Shown piece after piece: positions 7,147 to 61,599 of a stretch of 64,000 bases of DNA. The position numbers were made by a program, and so were the translations under genes. Below the pieces are notes generated by a model, which worked only from the letters and a program-made list of their open reading frames with translations, was not told the DNA's origin and made no database searches. How positions within the stretch are numbered: position 1 is the stretch's first letter; each line of letters starts with the position of its first letter. The DNA comes from an uncultured Methanosarcinales archaeon (GTDB taxonomy: Archaea > Nanobdellota > Nanobdellia > Woesearchaeales > UBA12501). The DNA is taken from positions 48,711-112,710 of the forward strand of contig CAYWPA010000002.1 of the NCBI GenBank assembly GCA_964459835.1, in the 5' to 3' direction.

Positions 7147-7196
7147 CCCTACCTTACGAAAACTATATAAATAAATTAGAAGCTTTTCTCCTTAAT

Positions 7197-7269
7197 GCCT
7201 CCGTAGCTTAGCAGGTAGAGCATTCGGCTGTTAACCGAAAGGTCGCCAGTTCGAGTCTGGCCGGAGGCG
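7197..7269 (+). tRNA. tRNA-Asn (GTT)
   Basis: Cloverleaf: acceptor GCCTCCG/CGGAGGC, D arm GCTT..GAGC, anticodon loop CTGTTAA, T loop TTCGAGT. Confidence 0.85.
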
Positions 7270-7282
7270 TTTTAGCTATAAC

Positions 7283-7434
7283 GGGCCCGTAGCTTAGCCT
7301 GGTGGAGCACACGACTGATAAACATTAAGCCGGGATTCTCTACGGAGGATGACGGCATTGAGAACCAAAATTCTCAATCCAAGGCTTGAAGTTCATAGAT
7401 CGTGAGGTCGGGAGTTCAAATCTCCTCGGGCCCA
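7283..7434 (+). tRNA. tRNA-Ile (GAT) with ~78-nt intron at position 37/38
   Basis: Acceptor GGGCCCG/CGGGCCC+A. Anticodon stem CACGA/TCGTG is separated by 7321..7398. Anticodon loop CTGATAA, T loop TTCAAAT. Confidence 0.75.
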
Positions 7435-55039: not shown

Positions 55040-56317
55040 TCACCTCTCTATTTTTACTTTGTCCATTAATTTTGGAACATAAACATTGTAGTCAAGCATC
55101 CTTGCCCATTCAGCCAAGCAGTCTTCTGCTTTGGGGTCGCCATGCAGCAATACAAGATGCTCGGGATTTGCTTTTTTGATCAGGCTTTTTGTTTCCTTTA
55201 ATCCGGAATGCGCAGAAAAGTCAAAATTTTCCACAAAACAGAGGGCTTTCTTTTTGTAGCCGTCAATAAAAACTGATTTTTCATCCATCAGCAGCCTTCC
55301 GTTTGTGTGCTCTCCCTGGTAGCCTGTCAGCAATACTGAATTTTTTTGGTCAAAGTACATATGCTTCAGATAGTCCATTACAGGCCCTCCTGTCAGCATT
55401 CCTGATGTAGTTATGAAAACTCCCTGCTTCTTTACAATGTTCTCTCTTTGCTTTCCTCCCTTCACCAGCCTTACCTTGCTGTATGCCTTTCTCAGCATTT
55501 TTGCGTCCTTTATTGACTGCGGCTCTTTAAGAATAATATCTGTAGCTTCCTTTGCCATTCCGTCAAGATAAACAGGAGCATCTAATTTTAACTGAGAGAG
55601 AAGCAGCATAATTTCCTGTGCTCTTCCAACGGCAAAGCATGGGATTAATACACTTCCGCCATTGTTTACTGTCTCTGCAACCTTATCAAGGAACTCCTTC
55701 TCAACCTTTTTTCTTGGAGGATGATCTCTGTCTCCGTAAGTTGATTCTGTTATCAATACATCTACCTCACCAAAGCTTGTGTCTGCTTCTTTCATCAATT
55801 GAGTTTCCTGCAGGTTAATATCTCCTGTATAAAGCAGAGATTTATTGTCTGCATTTACAAGAATTGTTGAGCTTCCAGGAATATGGCCTGCAGGGTAGAA
55901 CGTGAAGTTTACATCCAGAACTTTTCCTGACTCTTTCTGCCTTATTCTTTTTACGCAATTCAGTATCTTCTGTATGTCTTCCTCAAAATATCCCAATTCC
56001 TCGTGCTTAAATCTTCCAATCTTGAACGCGTCTTCCAGCAGGACTTTTGTCAATTTTTTTGTCATTGAGGTTGCATAAATCGGGCAGTACAATCCCTGAT
56101 GATCAAACAAAGGCAGGGCTCCTGTATGGTCCAAATGCGCATGGCTTATCAGCACTGCATCAATCTCTGAAAGATTCTGCATTCCGACAGGAAACTCGCT
56201 TAGGCTTTCTGTCAATTTTAAGCCTGCATCAAGAAGAATTCTTGTTGATTTTTTTGTTTCTAATTCAATGCAGCTCCTTCCTATTTCCATTGCAGCGCCA
56301 TGGAAAGTCAATTTCAT
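55040..56317 (-). CDS. beta-CASP/metallo-beta-lactamase ribonuclease (aCPSF2-like, no KH domains)
   Basis: ISHAHLDHTGALP (HxHxDH) and beta-CASP motifs. Confidence 0.8.
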   Translation of the reverse strand: MKLTFHGAAMEIGRSCIELETKKSTRILLDAGLKLTESLSEFPVGMQNLSEIDAVLISHAHLDHTGALPLFDHQGLYCPIYATSMTKKLTKVLLEDAFKIGRFKHEELGYFEEDIQKILNCVKRIRQKESGKVLDVNFTFYPAGHIPGSSTILVNADNKSLLYTGDINLQETQLMKEADTSFGEVDVLITESTYGDRDHPPRKKVEKEFLDKVAETVNNGGSVLIPCFAVGRAQEIMLLLSQLKLDAPVYLDGMAKEATDIILKEPQSIKDAKMLRKAYSKVRLVKGGKQRENIVKKQGVFITTSGMLTGGPVMDYLKHMYFDQKNSVLLTGYQGEHTNGRLLMDEKSVFIDGYKKKALCFVENFDFSAHSGLKETKSLIKKANPEHLVLLHGDPKAEDCLAEWARMLDYNVYVPKLMDKVKIER

Positions 56318-56496
56318 TTCTTTCCACCTCTTTTTCCCCTTTCCTCAAACTCTACGTACCATCTTTGCGTTGCCTTGTCATACTTGAACACCACATCGTG
56401 CTTTTTGGAGGGATCCAGCGCAAAGAGGAGCGGCATAGGTATGGTTGTCTCAAAACTGCTTCCTCTCTTGTAAAGCCGCCTTCTTATCTCGGTCAT
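56314..56496 (-). CDS. AbrB/MazE-like swapped-hairpin small DNA-binding protein (60 aa)
   Basis: RLYKRGSSFETTIPMPL resembles the AbrB/SpoVT fold signature. Overlaps the beta-CASP start by ATGA. Confidence 0.4.
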   Translation of the reverse strand: MTEIRRRLYKRGSSFETTIPMPLLFALDPSKKHDVVFKYDKATQRWYVEFEERGKRGGKK

Positions 56497-56654
56497 TTTC
56501 TGGATACTTATATTTATCTTTATTTTTATACTATTCTATTTATAAATATTTCTATTCTTTTATATACTTAAGAAAATACTTATATATTAAGGATTATTTG
56601 GGAGTAGTATATTAAAGAAAGCTTTATTAACTAGGCTTTATTCCCCACATTAGC

Positions 56655-57338
56655 ATGACTTTAGAAGCAACTCTTGGAGTAATGAATGCGGTTGAAGGCA
56701 ATAAGAACTTACAACTAGGATTTTTCAACGTGCTTTCTGAATTAACTGGCCTTCAAGTAGGTGTAGGAAATATGTCTTATAAATCAAACGGTGTTCAAGC
56801 GGGGTTGTTAAATCAGTCTTATAAATCAAACGGTGTTCAAGTAGGATTTGCAAACATGACTTCTGATGCGACTTCTGATTCTAAAAAAACTACAAAAGAA
56901 CAAATTAATGGATATTCTAATGGAATGCAAGCCGGGTTATTCAATTTTGCTGGTGTATCAAAAGGGCTCCAAATTGGCGTAGCTAATATAGCTAAATGCA
57001 CTTATGGTGTTCAGCTAGGTTTATTTAATGAATCTTATACTTATCATCCTGAAGAAATAGAAGAAACAAAAGGTGTTCAGATTGGTCCTTTTAATTCTAT
57101 TAAAAAAGGAAAGGGATTTCAGTTTGGAGTTATCGATTTTGCTAAAAGACTTAAAGGTGTTCAGCTTGGTTTAGTTGATGTTGTTAAAAGAGAATTTGAT
57201 GGATTGCAAGTTGGCGGAATCTGTTACGCAGCTGAAGGTACATATTTGCAATTAGGTGTATTGACTTTAAGAACAGAAGGACGATGGTATTCAAGGATAA
57301 CTCCTTTAGTTGGTTATCATTCAAGGCCTAAAAAATAA
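56655..57338 (+). CDS. repeat protein with ~10 copies of a G-[VLM]-Q-x-G-[LFV]-x-N motif
   Basis: Repeats GLQVGVGN, GVQAGLLN, GVQVGFAN, GMQAGLFN, GLQIGVAN, GVQLGLFN, GVQIGPFN, GFQFGVID, GVQLGLVD, GLQVGGIC. AT-rich codon usage; no SP called. Confidence 0.5.
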   Translation: MTLEATLGVMNAVEGNKNLQLGFFNVLSELTGLQVGVGNMSYKSNGVQAGLLNQSYKSNGVQVGFANMTSDATSDSKKTTKEQINGYSNGMQAGLFNFAGVSKGLQIGVANIAKCTYGVQLGLFNESYTYHPEEIEETKGVQIGPFNSIKKGKGFQFGVIDFAKRLKGVQLGLVDVVKREFDGLQVGGICYAAEGTYLQLGVLTLRTEGRWYSRITPLVGYHSRPKK

Positions 57339-58238: not shown

Positions 58239-58997
58239 TCAGGCTTTTTTCTCAGGGCTTGCAGCAGGCTTTCCTTCAACAGGTTTTCCCTCAACAGGCT
58301 TTGCTTCTACAGGCATTAATTCCTTGATGATCTGCATTGGCACTCCGGCTTCTAACATCTTTGCTTTGATAGCTGAAGCAGTCTTTCCTTCCATCTCCTT
58401 CAATATTGCTTTTCCTTTTGCCTCGTACTCAACTCTCTTTGCCTTTATGTCTTCCTCAAGCCTCTTCCTTTCTTCTTCCAATGCTTTAAGCTCTTCTGTT
58501 GAAAGTTCTGTCTTTCCTTTTTCTATCTTTTCCTTAAAAGCTCCCTTGTTGATATCAGCGATAGTTTCTCTTGCAGGCTTTCCCTCAACTAATATTCCCA
58601 TTGAGTCGCATGTCCCTATAATTTCCTTTACTTTTGAAAATTTGTCTTTTCCAAGCAAAGAATCAGCTTTCATTTTTGAAACTTTTATTATCTGCTCAAT
58701 TTTCAAATCAGCAACCTTTTCAAGCTTAGGGTTTGCAGCGCCTTTCTGTACATTTGCCTCTTTTTTTATCAAAGCTGATGTAGGCGGAGTTCCAACTGAT
58801 ATTGTGAAGCTTTTTGTTTCCTTGTCTATTGTTACTTTAACAGGCACCTGCATTCCCTTGAATTCCTGGGTTTTTTTGTTTATTTCTGTAACTACCTGCC
58901 CTATGTTTACTCCTAACGGCCCTAAAGCAGGCCCTAACGGAGGTGCTGCAGTAGCTTTTCCCCCTTCAATCAATGCATCTACGGTTTGAGTTGCCAT
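58239..58997 (-). CDS. rpl11: 50S ribosomal protein L11 with ~90-aa K/E/PVEGK-repeat C-terminal extension
   Basis: GGKATAAPPLGPALGPLGVNI and a conserved C-domain, then KAKRVEYEAKGK...PVEGKPVEGKPAASPEKKA. Confidence 0.8.
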   Translation of the reverse strand: MATQTVDALIEGGKATAAPPLGPALGPLGVNIGQVVTEINKKTQEFKGMQVPVKVTIDKETKSFTISVGTPPTSALIKKEANVQKGAANPKLEKVADLKIEQIIKVSKMKADSLLGKDKFSKVKEIIGTCDSMGILVEGKPARETIADINKGAFKEKIEKGKTELSTEELKALEEERKRLEEDIKAKRVEYEAKGKAILKEMEGKTASAIKAKMLEAGVPMQIIKELMPVEAKPVEGKPVEGKPAASPEKKA

Positions 58998-59128: not shown

Positions 59129-59356
59129 CTAACAGTGCTTCAGAAACTCTTCTCTGCTAATTCCTAAGTTTCTCTTTATAATTTTATTTAGGAGCCCGGG
59201 GCCAATTTCTTCGCCAGAATGGGAAGGGATAGTTGTTCTCCTCCCATCGGTATGTTTGTAAATCATATGGCTTCCTGTTGTATGGCTGTAAGTAAATCCA
59301 AATTTTTCCACTATTTTTGCTAGCTCCTTGCCTGTTAGCTTAGGCAATTTTGCCAA
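59129..59356 (-). CDS. hicA: HicA mRNA-interferase toxin
   Basis: KLTGKELAKIVEKFGF...GSHMIYKHTDGRRTTIPSHSGEEIGPGLLNKIIKRNLGI, HicA (YcfA) family. Confidence 0.75.
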   Translation of the reverse strand: MAKLPKLTGKELAKIVEKFGFTYSHTTGSHMIYKHTDGRRTTIPSHSGEEIGPGLLNKIIKRNLGISREEFLKHC

Positions 59357-59359
59357 GAA

Positions 59360-59569
59360 CTACACCTCTATTTGCTGTACACCGACAAACTGTTCAGATA
59401 TTTCAGGCTCTTCATTGCTTTCTAGATATGCTTTTATCGCCTCTTTTGTTCTTTCGATTAGTTTATCCATATTTTTAGCTTGAGTATGGCAGCCTGGCAA
59501 CCCGACTACCTCAGAAACAAAAAACCCTTCTTCATCTTTTTCAATGATGATAGTGTATTTTTTTGCCAT
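59360..59569 (-). CDS. hicB: HicB antitoxin (UPF0150)
   Basis: MAKKYTIIIEKDEEGFFVSEVVGLPGCHTQAKNMDKLIERTKEAIKAYLE. Start set at MAKKY (the ORF extends to 59611). Confidence 0.7.
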   Translation of the reverse strand: MAKKYTIIIEKDEEGFFVSEVVGLPGCHTQAKNMDKLIERTKEAIKAYLESNEEPEISEQFVGVQQIEV

Positions 59570-59614
59570 AGCAGCTAAATGCAAAGAATAGTATTTAAAT
59601 GTTGTTATCAAGAG

Positions 59615-60426: not shown

Positions 60427-61599
60427 TTAATCTAAAAATTCAATCCCCAACTCGTTCTGAATGCTTTCCTTTTTTTTCCCTAATCTTTTTGTATCTGGCC
60501 CAAAGATCTGGGTTGATTTTACCCCTGTGATTATCAAAAGCACCCTTATTATATTTGAAAGGTCCTCTGAAATCTGAGCTCCCCATATAACTCTCGCGTC
60601 TTCATCAAGCTTTTCTGTTATTGTTTCAACAATTTTTCTTGCTTCATCTAATGTCATGTCTGTTCCGCCTGTAATGTTGATCAATGCCCCATTAGCGCCT
60701 GAGACATCCACACTTAGCAATGGGTTTGATATTGCTTTTTCAACAGCTTCCACAGACCTGTTCTCTGTGTCGCTTTCTCCTACCCCTATCAAAGCAACTC
60801 CTCCATTGCCCATGACAGTCCTTATGTCAGCAAAGTCAAGGTTTACAAGGCCTGCTTTTGTTACAAGCTCTGCTATTCCCTTTACTGCATTTGTAAGTAT
60901 TTCATCTGCAATCTTAAAGGCGGTATGCAACGGAAGGTCAGGGGCAAGCTCAAGCAGCTTGTCGTTAGGGATAACTATCAAAGTATCCACAGCACTTTCC
61001 ATTTTTTCCAACCCAATAATTGCGTTTTCATATCTTCTTTTTCCTTCCATTGAGAAAGGCAAAGTTACAATTCCAACTGTCAATGCGCCCATTTTTTTTG
61101 AAAGCTCTGCAACAATGGGAGCTGAGCCTGTACCTGTTCCGCCTCCCAATCCACATGTTACAAAAACAATATCAGCGCCTTTCAAGGACTCTTTTATTTC
61201 TGCTTCCTGCTCTTTTGCAGCCTCTTCCCCTATTTTTGGTATGCTTCCTGCGCCCAATCCTTTTGTGGTTTCCTTTCCGATCAGTATTTTTTTGTCTGCG
61301 CTTGTATATAGCAAATCCTGGGCATCTGTATTGATGGCAATCGATTCAGCTCCTTTAATGCCGACTTCTGTTATCCTGTTGATCGTATTGTTTCCTCCTC
61401 CACCACATCCTACTACTTTTATCGTAGCCCTTTGCCTTGAAAGCAGCATCTCAAGCTCTGTATCGATATTGCTTGTTTTGCTGGCTTCCTCAACAACAGG
61501 CCTTCCGCCTACAGTAGGCCCTCTAGGAACCTGGTGATATGTTTCCTTATTTGGAGCTTCTTCAGAATGATTCTGCTGGTTTTGGTTCATGAAATCCAT
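60427..61599 (-). CDS. ftsZ: cell division GTPase FtsZ
   Basis: GCGGGGNN..., tubulin signature GGGTGTG, and T7 loop NLDFAD. Confidence 0.9.
   Translation of the reverse strand: MDFMNQNQQNHSEEAPNKETYHQVPRGPTVGGRPVVEEASKTSNIDTELEMLLSRQRATIKVVGCGGGGNNTINRITEVGIKGAESIAINTDAQDLLYTSADKKILIGKETTKGLGAGSIPKIGEEAAKEQEAEIKESLKGADIVFVTCGLGGGTGTGSAPIVAELSKKMGALTVGIVTLPFSMEGKRRYENAIIGLEKMESAVDTLIVIPNDKLLELAPDLPLHTAFKIADEILTNAVKGIAELVTKAGLVNLDFADIRTVMGNGGVALIGVGESDTENRSVEAVEKAISNPLLSVDVSGANGALINITGGTDMTLDEARKIVETITEKLDEDARVIWGAQISEDLSNIIRVLLIITGVKSTQIFGPDTKRLGKKKESIQNELGIEFLD

What the first reader, a model, noticed from the sequence alone, without database searches (positions are those of the whole stretch)
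56655..57338. Protein built from ~10 G-[VLM]-Q-x-G-[LFV]-x-N repeats, bacterial-lipoprotein-like, in an AT-rich island
The 227-aa ORF consists almost entirely of periodic GVQLGLFN-type units spaced 9-20 residues apart, consistent with a beta-solenoid-like repeat fold. This motif class is reminiscent of repeat lipoproteins of some bacteria and is not a known archaeal family. The gene is flanked by unusually AT-rich spacers and sits between a beta-CASP RNase operon and dtdA.
Basis: seen in the sequence. Interest (0 to 1): 0.6.

Follow-up and report, generated by a model that had tools for sequence, protein, structure and literature searches.

The report
Archaeal signal-less LA_2272-type beta-solenoid repeat protein
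This is a real gene of a Woesearchaeota-like (DPANN) archaeon; its protein is a stack of twelve 14-residue repeats of a type so far catalogued only in bacterial surface proteins, but here it has no export signal, has its own conserved end-caps and has no known function.

Summary
The 227-aa ORF (56655-57338, +) and its repeats are real. It has 12 Q-x-G units against a mean of 1.9 in shuffles, with a strict 14-residue period and two loop insertions.

It is not a lipoprotein: it has no signal peptide, lipobox or membrane helix. Its closest relatives form a separate subfamily of at least 56 clusters. These share an M-x-L-E..L-G start, a variable number of rungs and a conserved C-terminal module, CYA..G.YLQLGLLT.R..GPWY.R.SP..G, followed by a basic tail. 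Every named member is from Nanoarchaeia or Woesearchaeota, and all eleven gene neighbourhoods examined are archaeal housekeeping. One relative is fused to a Ser/Thr kinase.

AlphaFold2 (pLDDT 90) predicts a continuous parallel beta-solenoid. Neither PDB nor BFVD holds a significant match.

The "AT-rich island" and recent-transfer ideas are not supported. The spacers are ordinary, and only GC3 is low.

The function is unknown across the whole superfamily. My best inference is a cytoplasmic capped rod whose conserved C-terminal module docks a partner or the membrane. I class it as a new variant of a known kind, of moderate interest.

The parts
56623..56630 (+). TATA-like box TTTATTAA, centred about 28 nt before the ATG and preceded by a purine-rich stretch. 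It would give a leaderless or near-leaderless archaeal transcript.
   Evidence: Read directly from the sequence. This is inference only; the sigma-70 scan is irrelevant to archaea and was at shuffle level.
56655..57338 (+). Complete ORF, 227 aa plus stop. It is a signal-less LA_2272-type repeat protein of the archaeal 'class B' subfamily.
   Evidence: The identical protein with the same DtdA and L11 neighbours is on an independent Logan contig from run ERR3478686.
56655..56705 (+). N-terminal cap, aa 1-17 (MTLEATLGVMNAVEGNK). The subfamily shares an M-x-L-E-x-x-L-G start.
   Evidence: Alignment A1 consensus 'MxLxxxxG' and the sequence lists. AF2 confidence is low here, pLDDT 53-69, with a short helix at aa 3-6.
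56706..56861 (+). Rungs 1-4, aa 18-69, each 14 residues: G-phi-Q-phi-G-phi-phi-N-x-A-x-x-x-x.
   Evidence: Q-x-G at aa 20, 34, 48 and 62; strands 19-69 with pLDDT 93-97.
56862..56921 (+). Loop insertion 1, aa 70-89 (Ser/Thr/Lys-rich).
   Evidence: A 30-residue spacing between units; non-strand and pLDDT 63-75.
56922..57035 (+). Rungs 5-7, aa 90-127.
   Evidence: Q-x-G at aa 92, 106 and 120; one uninterrupted strand run at aa 88-127. This holds the best NF047436 stretch, aa 89-114.
57036..57071 (+). Loop insertion 2, aa 128-139 (YTYHPEEIEETK).
   Evidence: A 22-residue spacing; non-strand and pLDDT about 80.
57072..57200 (+). Rungs 8-10, aa 140-182.
   Evidence: Q-x-G at aa 142, 156 and 170; DNA copies at 42-nt spacing at 57069, 57111 and 57153; strands with pLDDT 97-98.
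57201..57320 (+). Conserved subfamily C-terminal module, aa 183-222: two degenerate rungs (GLQVGGICYAAEGT, YLQLGVLTLRTEG) and the cap RWYSRITPLVGYH.
   Evidence: This is the most conserved part of A1. Q199, G201, P217 and G220 are invariant; G183, Q185, C190, G195, T204, R206 and Y212 are at least 90% conserved. A2 has 70% mean column identity. AF2 gives a turn at aa 207-214 and a final strand at 215-222.
57321..57338 (+). Basic tail (SRPKK) and stop codon.
   Evidence: Class B tails are 25% K/R against 13% D/E. The whole protein has pI 9.2 and net charge +5.7.

Best explanation
Shown. The ORF is a genuine gene of a Woesearchaeota/Nanoarchaeota-type DPANN archaeon. Its product belongs to the LA_2272/VC2662 repeat superfamily, but to a distinct archaeal subfamily that I call class B. 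Class B has no signal peptide, lipobox or membrane helix. It has a conserved M-x-L-E..L-G start, a variable number of 14-residue rungs (G-phi-Q-phi-G-phi-phi-N-x-A-x-x-x-x), and a conserved C-terminal module (G.Q.G..CYA..G.YLQLGLLT.R..GPWY.R.SP..G) followed by a Lys/Arg-rich tail.

Predicted. The 12 rungs stack in register into a parallel beta-solenoid rod. At the standard rung spacing of about 4.8 A, 12 rungs give about 58 A. Two surface loops protrude and both ends are capped.

Inferred.
- The protein stays in the cytoplasm.
- The rung stack acts as a rigid spacer or scaffold of variable length. It carries no conserved surface site; the conserved rung positions are all G, Q, N, A or hydrophobic.
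- The function lies in the conserved aromatic and basic C-terminal module, which docks the rod, or whatever is fused to it, onto a partner or onto the anionic membrane surface.
- Because both ends are capped, I favour a discrete rod over an open-ended amyloid-like polymer.

The gene is a vertically maintained lineage family, not a recent bacterial import.

Approximate confidences: family, subfamily and lineage 0.9; beta-solenoid fold 0.75; cytoplasmic location 0.7; docking or scaffold role of the C-terminal module 0.3. The overall figure given below (0.55) is for the statement as a whole.
For: Family: NF047436 at 81.7 bits against a cutoff of 25; 37 of 47 class B members hit it.

Subfamily: 56 of the best 150 exhaustive phmmer hits carry the C-terminal module. 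Among these, 3 of 56 have signal-peptide-like N-termini by a crude rule and none has a TM-like segment. Among the other hits, 58 of 94 look signal-peptide-like and 65 of 94 end in an aromatic residue. The window protein's maximum 19-residue Kyte-Doolittle hydropathy is 1.08.

Caps are more conserved than rungs. Q/E-x-G unit counts range from 2 to 13 among class B members.

Lineage: the window FtsZ is 72-82% identical to Woesearchaeota, Nanoarchaeota and Nanoarchaeia FtsZ. The window carries the archaeal FtsZ-SecE-Spt5-L11 string, DtdA and an intron-containing tRNA. All named class B members are archaeal: P0018 and P0027 are 'Candidatus Nanoarchaeia archaeon' and P0039 is 'Candidatus Woesearchaeota archaeon'. 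The 11 distinct neighbourhoods hold SepF, archaeal-type PheRS alpha and beta, GGR, RpoE-Spt4-S24e-S27e-FtsZ, S6e/aIF2-gamma, GatD and TrmB.

Cytoplasmic location: L033 encodes a Pkinase domain (E 2.3e-16) fused to variant repeats and the same C-cap with no TM segment. L034 has the C-cap behind an unrelated N-domain.

Fold: AF2 pLDDT 90.3 and pTM 0.83, with strand runs at aa 88-127 and 160-206. A bacterial class A homologue gives the same pattern (pLDDT 91.6). The weak Foldseek hits are mostly beta-helix and other solenoid proteins.

Charge: pI 9.2 and basic tails.
Against: - No function is known for any member of the superfamily. LA_2272 is only a predicted outer-membrane protein (PMC5348505). 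VC2662 is uncharacterised and its deletion gave no phenotype (PMC10865864).
- No conserved gene neighbour gives a functional hint.
- Model coordinates could not be inspected, so handedness, the identity of core residues and the true state of the caps are unknown.
- AF2 is known to give confident solenoids for repeat sequences.
- The N-cap is poorly predicted.
- The absence of a signal peptide was judged by simple rules, not by a trained predictor.
- GC3 is the lowest in the window, so some foreign history cannot be excluded.
- Only three class B members carry an organism name.
Confidence: 0.55

Rival explanations
1. It is a self-assembling cytoskeleton-like or amyloid-like polymer. The conserved N- and C-terminal modules would be complementary ends that join solenoid rods head to tail into filaments, as happens with bactofilin or curli subunits, possibly in connection with cell division.
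For: The model is a cross-beta-like in-register stack with Gln and Asn at fixed rung positions, as in curli (PMC10192328). The ends are the most conserved parts. The rung number is free to vary. Class B genes lie 3.1-3.4 kb from ftsZ in the window and in L016, and about 4 kb from sepF in L005 and L012.
Against: AF2 closes the C-terminal end with a turn and an extra strand, and the last two rungs replace the ladder Asn with Cys and Thr. That is typical of capping, which prevents edge-to-edge stacking. The proximity to division genes holds in only 2 of about 11 independent contexts and may be chance in genomes of about 1 Mb. No polymerisation test was possible.
Confidence: 0.15
2. It works on the cell surface like its bacterial relatives, for example as an adhesin or envelope component of an episymbiotic DPANN cell, and is exported by a route that needs no classical signal peptide.
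For: The superfamily is named and predicted as surface or outer-membrane associated. Most bacterial hits have signal peptides and a C-terminal aromatic residue (PMC5348505). Some are fused to CsgG-like lipoprotein domains.
Against: Class B lacks a signal peptide family-wide (3 of 56 by a crude rule) and lacks TM segments. Archaea have no outer membrane or BAM machinery to read a C-terminal Phe signal, and class B lacks that signal anyway. The fusion to a Ser/Thr kinase domain without any TM segment points to the cytoplasm.
Confidence: 0.12
3. It is a recent horizontal acquisition of a bacterial lipoprotein gene sitting in an AT-rich island.
For: The repeat type is overwhelmingly bacterial in the databases. 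GC3 of 0.189 is the lowest of 57 ORFs.
Against: The best hits are archaeal class B proteins at 36-47% identity sharing unique caps. There is no lipobox or signal peptide. The NF047435 lipoprotein model is matched only over its repeat part (profile positions 33-58 of 59) at 30.9 bits against a cutoff of 30. The flanking spacers have ordinary intergenic GC. The only mobile-element-like genes nearby are the HicAB toxin-antitoxin pair about 1.8 kb downstream. No phage or defence family matched. An ancient inter-domain transfer of the repeat is possible but was not tested.
Confidence: 0.05
4. It is a spurious ORF or an assembly artefact.
For: The exact sequence is absent from the protein-cluster table although its neighbours from the same contig are present. 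Gene callers may therefore have skipped it or started it elsewhere in the source record.
Against: There are 1586 homologues at E<1e-3, including full-length matches that reach both termini. The identical protein with identical neighbours is on an independently assembled contig. The AF2 model is high-confidence.
Confidence: 0.01

Closest known systems
LA_2272 family surface repeat-containing proteins (NCBIfam NF047436; Leptospira LA_2272/LIC11665 and many Bacteroidota, Myxococcota, Kiritimatiellota and Leptospiraceae proteins)
   Same: The same 14/15-residue G-phi-Q-phi-G-phi-phi-N-x-A unit; the position-by-position logos of class B and the bacterial hits are nearly identical. The HMM score is far above the cutoff. 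AF2 gives the same strand pattern for a bacterial member. The function is unknown in both.
   Different: The bacterial proteins carry a signal peptide or lipoprotein signal, an N-terminal W.P.Q..L.PP.Q motif and a C-terminal P..N..F end, or a C-terminal barrel-like domain. The window protein has none of these. It has the class B N-cap, C-cap and basic tail instead, and it is archaeal.
VC2662 family (NCBIfam NF047437, Vibrio cholerae hypothetical protein)
   Same: It shares the repeat: a partial match at 51 bits over aa 82-176. 39 of 47 class B members give a sub-threshold hit.
   Different: The score is far below the equivalog cutoff of 140 bits. VC2662 is an uncharacterised protein whose level rises in an ompU mutant, and its deletion had no phenotype (PMC10865864).
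Curli subunit CsgA (curlin repeats; cryo-EM and AF2 beta-solenoid, PMC10192328)
   Same: A parallel in-register beta-solenoid of stacked short repeats, with Gln and Asn at fixed positions, Q-x-G at the strand end, and a repeat number that varies widely among homologues. Some bacterial class A proteins are fused to a CsgG-family domain.
   Different: A curlin repeat is 23 +/- 5 residues with the motif N-x-psi-x-psi-x-Q on each of two strands, its ends are open and it polymerises outside the cell. Here the rung is 14 residues, the residue order differs, the ends look capped, there is no export signal and there was no Pfam Curlin_rpt hit even at E<=10.
Left-handed parallel beta-roll of YadA-like heads of trimeric autotransporter adhesins (PDB 1P9H; BpaC, PMC9543794)
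   Same: This is the solved architecture I found whose layers are also 14 residues (some 15). It has an invariant Gly, Asn ladders, insertions located between layers, and layer numbers that expand and contract.
   Different: There was no Pfam YadA-head/Hep_Hag hit. Foldseek returned no YadA or BpaC head for either model; the only trimeric autotransporter listed was F. nucleatum CbpF, at E 3.9 and TM 0.20. The motif is different (NSVAIG type against G-phi-Q-phi-G-phi-phi-N). Those heads are obligate trimers of secreted autotransporters with stalk and anchor domains, which are absent here.
Bactofilins (beta-helical cytoskeletal proteins; from general knowledge, not tested beyond Pfam)
   Same: They are cytoplasmic beta-solenoid proteins with short terminal segments that mediate membrane binding and assembly. 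This makes them a functional analogy for the scaffold or polymer reading.
   Different: There was no Pfam bactofilin hit. Bactofilin windings are longer and triangular. Polymerisation of the present protein is untested.

Membership tests
LA_2272 repeat superfamily (NCBIfam NF047436, domain model) | HMM score at or above the curated cutoff (25 bits), with several repeat copies | tested here: met
   81.7 bits, E 2.3e-23, 7 stretches at E<=10 and 3 at E<=0.001.
LA_2272 repeat superfamily (NCBIfam NF047436, domain model) | Periodic G-phi-Q-phi-G-phi-phi-N unit of 14-15 residues | tested here: met
   12 units. Spacing is 14 in 8 of 11 intervals and 15 in one. The logo is the same as in bacterial members.
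LA_2272 repeat superfamily (NCBIfam NF047436, domain model) | Surface or outer-membrane targeting (signal peptide, C-terminal aromatic end), as the family name implies | tested here: not met
   No basic n-region, hydrophobic h-region or lipobox. Maximum KD19 is 1.08. The protein ends in SRPKK. This was judged by simple rules only.
LA_2272/LA_2273 family lipoprotein (NCBIfam NF047435, equivalog_domain) | Match to the whole model, including the lipoprotein N-terminal part, above the 30-bit cutoff | tested here: not met
   30.9 bits is nominally above the cutoff, but the best stretch covers only profile positions 33-58 of 59, which is the repeat part, and it aligns to aa 164-189. There is no lipobox Cys near the N-terminus.
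VC2662 family (NCBIfam NF047437, equivalog) | Score at or above 140 bits | tested here: not met
   51 bits.
Archaeal class B subfamily (defined here) | No signal peptide, with an M-x-L-E-x-x-L-G start | tested here: met
   MTLEATLG; A1 consensus.
Archaeal class B subfamily (defined here) | C-terminal module G.Q.G..CYA..G.Y.Q.G..T.R..G.WY.R.[ST]P..G followed by a basic tail | tested here: met
   GLQVGGICYAAEGTYLQLGVLTLRTEGRWYSRITPLVG at aa 183-220, followed by YHSRPKK.
Archaeal class B subfamily (defined here) | Encoded in DPANN (Nanoarchaeia/Woesearchaeota) genomes | tested here: met
   The window FtsZ has its nearest named relatives in Woesearchaeota and Nanoarchaeota. 3 of 3 named members are archaeal. 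All 11 contexts examined are archaeal.
Curli CsgA/CsgB (Pfam Curlin_rpt) | Curlin repeat HMM match; repeat of about 23 residues; secretion signal | tested here: not met
   No Pfam hit at E<=10 other than a chance FmdE match. The period is 14. There is no signal peptide.
YadA-like head / left-handed parallel beta-roll | 14-residue layers | tested here: met
   Period 14, compared with 14-residue LPBR layers (PMC9543794).
YadA-like head / left-handed parallel beta-roll | Sequence or structure similarity to solved heads; trimeric autotransporter architecture | tested here: not met
   No Pfam hit. Foldseek against PDB returned nothing at E<1 and TM was at most 0.25 for both models. There is no stalk or anchor. 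The handedness of the model could not be inspected.
Bactofilin | Bactofilin (DUF583) domain match; polymer formation | tested here: not met
   No Pfam hit. Polymerisation is not testable with these tools.

The most novel reading that the evidence does not exclude
Class B proteins would be a DPANN-specific cytoplasmic beta-solenoid scaffold built on a fold with no solved representative. Rods of variable length would assemble, or dock to the membrane or the division machinery, through their conserved aromatic and basic C-terminal module, and would recruit fused or bound effectors such as Ser/Thr kinases. That would make them a new archaeal cytoskeleton-like or scaffolding element, derived from or ancestral to a large family of bacterial outer-membrane repeat proteins.
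Probability: 0.12. Interest if true: 0.7.

Novelty: new variant of a known kind. Interest (0 to 1): 0.38.

Why it matters
The LA_2272/VC2662 repeat superfamily is large: 1586 clusters at 50% identity matched this one query. Yet it has no solved structure and no known function.

This window shows that the repeat also exists in a leaderless form in genome-reduced DPANN archaea, with its own conserved caps and occasional kinase fusions. The module therefore cannot be only an outer-membrane device. Small soluble members of 117-230 aa are convenient targets for solving the fold and testing self-assembly.

For DPANN biology, it adds one more conserved lineage-specific family to the large unannotated fraction of these genomes. 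Taken alone, the gene in this window is an ordinary member of that family and carries no functional clue from its neighbours.

Tried and rejected
- Pfam: only a chance FmdE hit at E 0.2.
- PDB sequence search with the class B profile: nothing at E<=1.
- Foldseek of the window model against PDB and BFVD, and of a bacterial homologue model against PDB: no match at E<0.3, and TM at most 0.36 normalised to the query.
- Genome-contig scan with the single protein: only two Bacteroidota class A loci, and the source genome was not found.
- The search for related loci with the full alignment A1 failed for lack of a conserved stretch. I repeated it with the C-cap alignment A2, which gave 15 metagenome loci and no viral contigs.
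- PHROGs and PADLOC: no hits, so I rejected viral or defence readings.
- Neighbourhood clustering over 33 loci: no conserved partner gene apart from local synteny between near-orthologues.
- Tandem Repeats Finder saw no DNA-level array inside the gene. The ungapped repeat finder did show 42-nt spacing at 63-75% identity, so the repeats are old, not recently amplified.
- The sigma-70 promoter and terminator scan was at shuffle level and is not applicable to archaea.
- Literature searches for LA_2272, LIC11665, VC2662 and NF047436 gave only list entries and one negative phenotype.
- I considered an antiparallel hairpin meander or barrel because N-G precedes many units. I rejected it because DSSP shows strand runs of 40-47 residues without turns.
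- I considered a DNA mimic like the pentapeptide-repeat proteins and rejected it because the protein is basic (pI 9.2).
Full report
**1. The observation**

The window holds an ORF at 56655-57338 on the plus strand, 227 aa. It begins at the first start codon after an upstream stop. The translation contains 12 Q-x-G-centred units at residues 20, 34, 48, 62, 92, 106, 120, 142, 156, 170, 185 and 199. The spacings are 14,14,14,30,14,14,22,14,14,15,14. In 20,000 shuffles of the same protein the mean count was 1.9 units and the maximum was 9.

A 42-nt spacing at 63-75% identity is also visible in the DNA. Tandem Repeats Finder reports nothing inside the gene, so the copies are old.

The neighbours are as described. 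A beta-CASP/RMMBL RNase lies on the minus strand upstream and DtdA (PF04414, E 1e-55) lies downstream. Beyond DtdA come ribosomal protein L11, a HicAB pair, Spt5, SecE and FtsZ.

**2. The 'AT-rich island'**

This part is not supported.
- The two spacers have GC 0.21 and 0.17. The 27 intergenic regions of the window average 0.28 (sd 0.09), and several lie at 0.16-0.23.
- The gene has GC 0.348 against 0.383 +/- 0.025 for 57 ORFs.
- Its codon-usage score is within one sd.
- Only GC3 is unusual: at 0.189 it is the lowest of the 57 ORFs.

**3. Which family**

Pfam has nothing. NCBIfam places the protein clearly in NF047436, 'LA_2272 family surface repeat-containing protein', with E 2.3e-23 and 81.7 bits against a cutoff of 25.

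Two related models are not met.
- The VC2662 equivalog scores 51 bits against a cutoff of 140.
- The LA_2272/LA_2273 lipoprotein model scores 30.9 bits against 30, but the match covers only the repeat part of the profile (positions 33-58 of 59).

The protein itself has no signal peptide, lipobox or hydrophobic segment. Its N-terminus is MTLEATLGVMNAVEGNK and its maximum 19-residue hydropathy is 1.08.

The literature offers no function. LA_2272/LIC11665 appears only in lists of predicted outer-membrane proteins (PMC5348505, PMC2387172). VC2662 is an uncharacterised protein that rises in an ompU mutant, and its deletion gave no phenotype (PMC10865864).

**4. Relatives fall into two architectures**

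An exhaustive phmmer search found 1586 cluster representatives at E<1e-3. The best had E 7e-26 at 36% identity.

The first architecture I call class A. It has a signal peptide, the repeats and a C-terminal P..N..F end or a barrel-like domain. Named members are bacterial: Kiritimatiellota, Myxococcota, Leptospiraceae and Flavobacteriia. Some are fused to a CsgG-family domain.

The second I call class B. It accounts for at least 56 of the best 150 hits and dominates the top ranks. Its features are:
- an M-x-L-E..L-G start;
- no signal peptide (3 of 56 by a crude rule, against 58 of 94 for the rest) and no TM-like segment;
- between 2 and 13 units;
- a conserved C-terminal module, G.Q.G..CYA..G.YLQLGLLT.R..GPWY.R.SP..G, followed by a K/R-rich tail.

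The window protein is class B: GLQVGGICYAAEGTYLQLGVLTLRTEGRWYSRITPLVG-YHSRPKK.

In the class B alignment the invariant and near-invariant columns are concentrated in the last 45 residues. An alignment of this module alone has 70% mean column identity. The 14-residue unit logos of class A and class B are almost the same: G1 phi2 Q3 phi4 G5 phi6 phi7 N8 Y/phi9 A10 charged11 charged12 L/G13 x14.

**5. Lineage**

- The window's FtsZ is 72-82% identical to FtsZ of 'Candidatus Woesearchaeota', 'Nanoarchaeota' and 'Candidatus Nanoarchaeia' MAGs.
- The window also has an intron-containing tRNA.
- The three class B members that carry organism names are two Candidatus Nanoarchaeia archaeon and one Candidatus Woesearchaeota archaeon.
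- I examined 11 distinct class B neighbourhoods, and all are archaeal housekeeping. They are: SepF/DnaG/T2SSE/TrmB; archaeal-type PheRS alpha and beta; geranylgeranyl reductase; RpoE-Spt4-S24e-S27e...FtsZ; S6e/aIF2-gamma; GatD; TrmB/TyrRS; and others.
- No neighbour is conserved beyond local synteny.
- The module was not found on viral contigs, and PHROGs and PADLOC gave nothing.
- The identical protein with the same DtdA and L11 neighbours is present on an independently assembled Logan contig.

Class B is therefore a conserved DPANN family. A recent import from bacteria is not supported. An ancient transfer of the repeat between domains remains possible and was not tested.

**6. Fold**

AlphaFold2 with the class B alignment gives pLDDT 90.3 and pTM 0.83. 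The model is all-beta, with strand runs at aa 33-44, 47-58, 61-69, 88-127, 146-157 and 160-206, and a final strand at 215-222. The two insertions (aa 70-87 and 128-137) and the first 20 residues are less confident.

Uninterrupted strand assignment over 40-47 residues cannot arise from hairpins. It requires each residue to be laddered to the residue 14 positions away. That is a parallel in-register beta-solenoid with 14 residues per rung. At the standard spacing of about 4.8 A, 12 rungs give about 58 A. A bacterial class A homologue gives the same picture (pLDDT 91.6).

Foldseek finds no significant match for either model in PDB or BFVD: every E is at least 0.3 and every query-normalised TM is at most 0.36. 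The weak hits are mostly beta-helices and other solenoids such as LpxA, OatWY, gamma-carbonic anhydrase, budworm antifreeze, TPS domains and LRRs. The profile also finds no PDB sequence.

I could not inspect coordinates. Handedness, core composition and the cap geometry therefore remain unknown, and the usual caution about confident AF2 solenoids for repeat sequences applies.

**7. How it probably works**

Shown: family, subfamily, lineage, the absence of recognisable export signals, and the conservation pattern. Predicted: the solenoid rod.

The rest is inferred.
- The conserved rung positions are all structural (Gly, Gln, Asn, Ala, hydrophobics), the exposed positions are variable and charged, and the number of rungs is free. 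The rung stack therefore looks like a rigid spacer of variable length and not a specific binding surface.
- The conserved part is the C-terminal module, with Cys190, Tyr191, Thr204, Arg206, Trp/Tyr211-212, Arg214, Pro217 and Gly220, plus the basic tail. The whole protein is basic (pI 9.2).
- The same module ends a 545-aa protein that has an N-terminal Ser/Thr kinase domain (Pkinase, E 2.3e-16), 16-residue variant repeats and no TM segment (L033). It also ends a 145-aa protein with an unrelated N-domain (L034).

I therefore favour a cytoplasmic capped rod whose C-terminal aromatic and basic module docks it, and anything fused to it, to a partner or to the anionic membrane surface. My confidence in this functional step is about 0.3.

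In the last two rungs the ladder Asn is replaced by Cys and Thr, and a closing strand follows. This looks like capping, which argues against open-ended amyloid-like growth. That is why I rank the polymer reading lower, at 0.15.

Surface function through unconventional export stays possible (0.12), because the bacterial relatives are envelope proteins. Recent transfer (0.05) and a spurious ORF (0.01) are essentially excluded.

**8. Comparison with known systems**

The protein is a member of the LA_2272 repeat superfamily by its defining HMM and unit. It fails the targeting features implied by that family's name, and it fails the two narrower NCBIfam models.

It resembles curli CsgA in principle: stacked in-register repeats, fixed Gln and Asn positions, Q-x-G, and a variable repeat number (PMC10192328). 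It differs in rung length (14 against 23 +/- 5), motif order, capped ends and location, and it has no Curlin_rpt match.

[quoted passage not shown] Neither Pfam nor Foldseek links the two, and the trimeric autotransporter context is absent.

Bactofilin is only a functional analogy.

**9. Verdict**

The gene is an ordinary member of a previously undescribed archaeal, signal-less subfamily of a known but uncharacterised repeat superfamily. That makes it a new variant of a known kind. Interest is moderate: the fold has no solved representative and the archaeal form shows the module is not purely an outer-membrane device, but nothing in this window points to a specific function.

Noticed in passing
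window 59129-59611 (-): A HicA toxin (PF07927, E 2e-18) and a HicB-like antitoxin (PF15919) are inserted between ribosomal protein L11 and Spt5/NusG. The surrounding FtsZ-SecE-Spt5-L11 string is otherwise conserved in archaea.
   Followed up: partly
window 58239-58997 (-): Ribosomal protein L11 is 252 aa. The two L11 domains end near aa 137 and are followed by a Lys/Glu-rich extension of about 115 aa ending in VEGKP repeats.
   Followed up: no
window 7283-7434 (+): A 152-nt tRNA hit from Rfam that ARAGORN does not report. It is presumably an intron-containing archaeal tRNA, directly after tRNA-Asn at 7196-7270.
   Followed up: no
window 56655-57338 and 60427-61599; L016 6001-6354 and 9735-10862; L005 1702-2103 and 6001-6714; L012 1272-1676 and 6001-6540: Class B repeat genes lie 3.1-3.4 kb from ftsZ (window, L016 group) and about 4 kb from sepF (L005, L012). 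This holds in only 2 of about 11 independent contexts, so it may be chance in small genomes.
   Followed up: partly
L033 4519-6153: A 545-aa protein with an N-terminal Ser/Thr kinase domain (Pkinase, E 2.3e-16), about ten 16-residue 'GDQVGFLAALNVAREV' variant repeats and the class B C-terminal cap, surrounded by nucleotidyltransferase-domain genes.
   Followed up: partly
L032 5477-6139 and L034 2271-2705: Two divergent class B forms. In L032 the unit is G-V-N-A-G-G, with Gln replaced by Asn. In L034 the C-cap stands almost alone behind an unrelated N-domain of about 100 aa. Both genes follow a TrmB-family regulator gene.
   Followed up: partly
window 56314-56496 (-): A 60-aa ORF overlaps the start of the beta-CASP RNase gene by 4 nt. 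By eye its N-terminus (RRLYKRGSSFETTIP) looks like an AbrB/SpoVT-type fold, but there is no Pfam hit at E<1e-3.
   Followed up: no
proteins P0012, P0208, P0209, P0210, P0214, P0231 (bacterial relatives): Bacterial class A repeat proteins are fused to a CsgG-family lipoprotein domain (PF03783, some with PF11684 or PF13036). This is an unexplained link between the repeat and curli-type secretion components.
   Followed up: no
window 56655-57338: The exact protein is absent from the protein-cluster table, yet its neighbours from the same 114,956-bp NCBI contig are present, and the protein itself is found on a Logan contig. The source record may lack this gene call or start it elsewhere.
   Followed up: no
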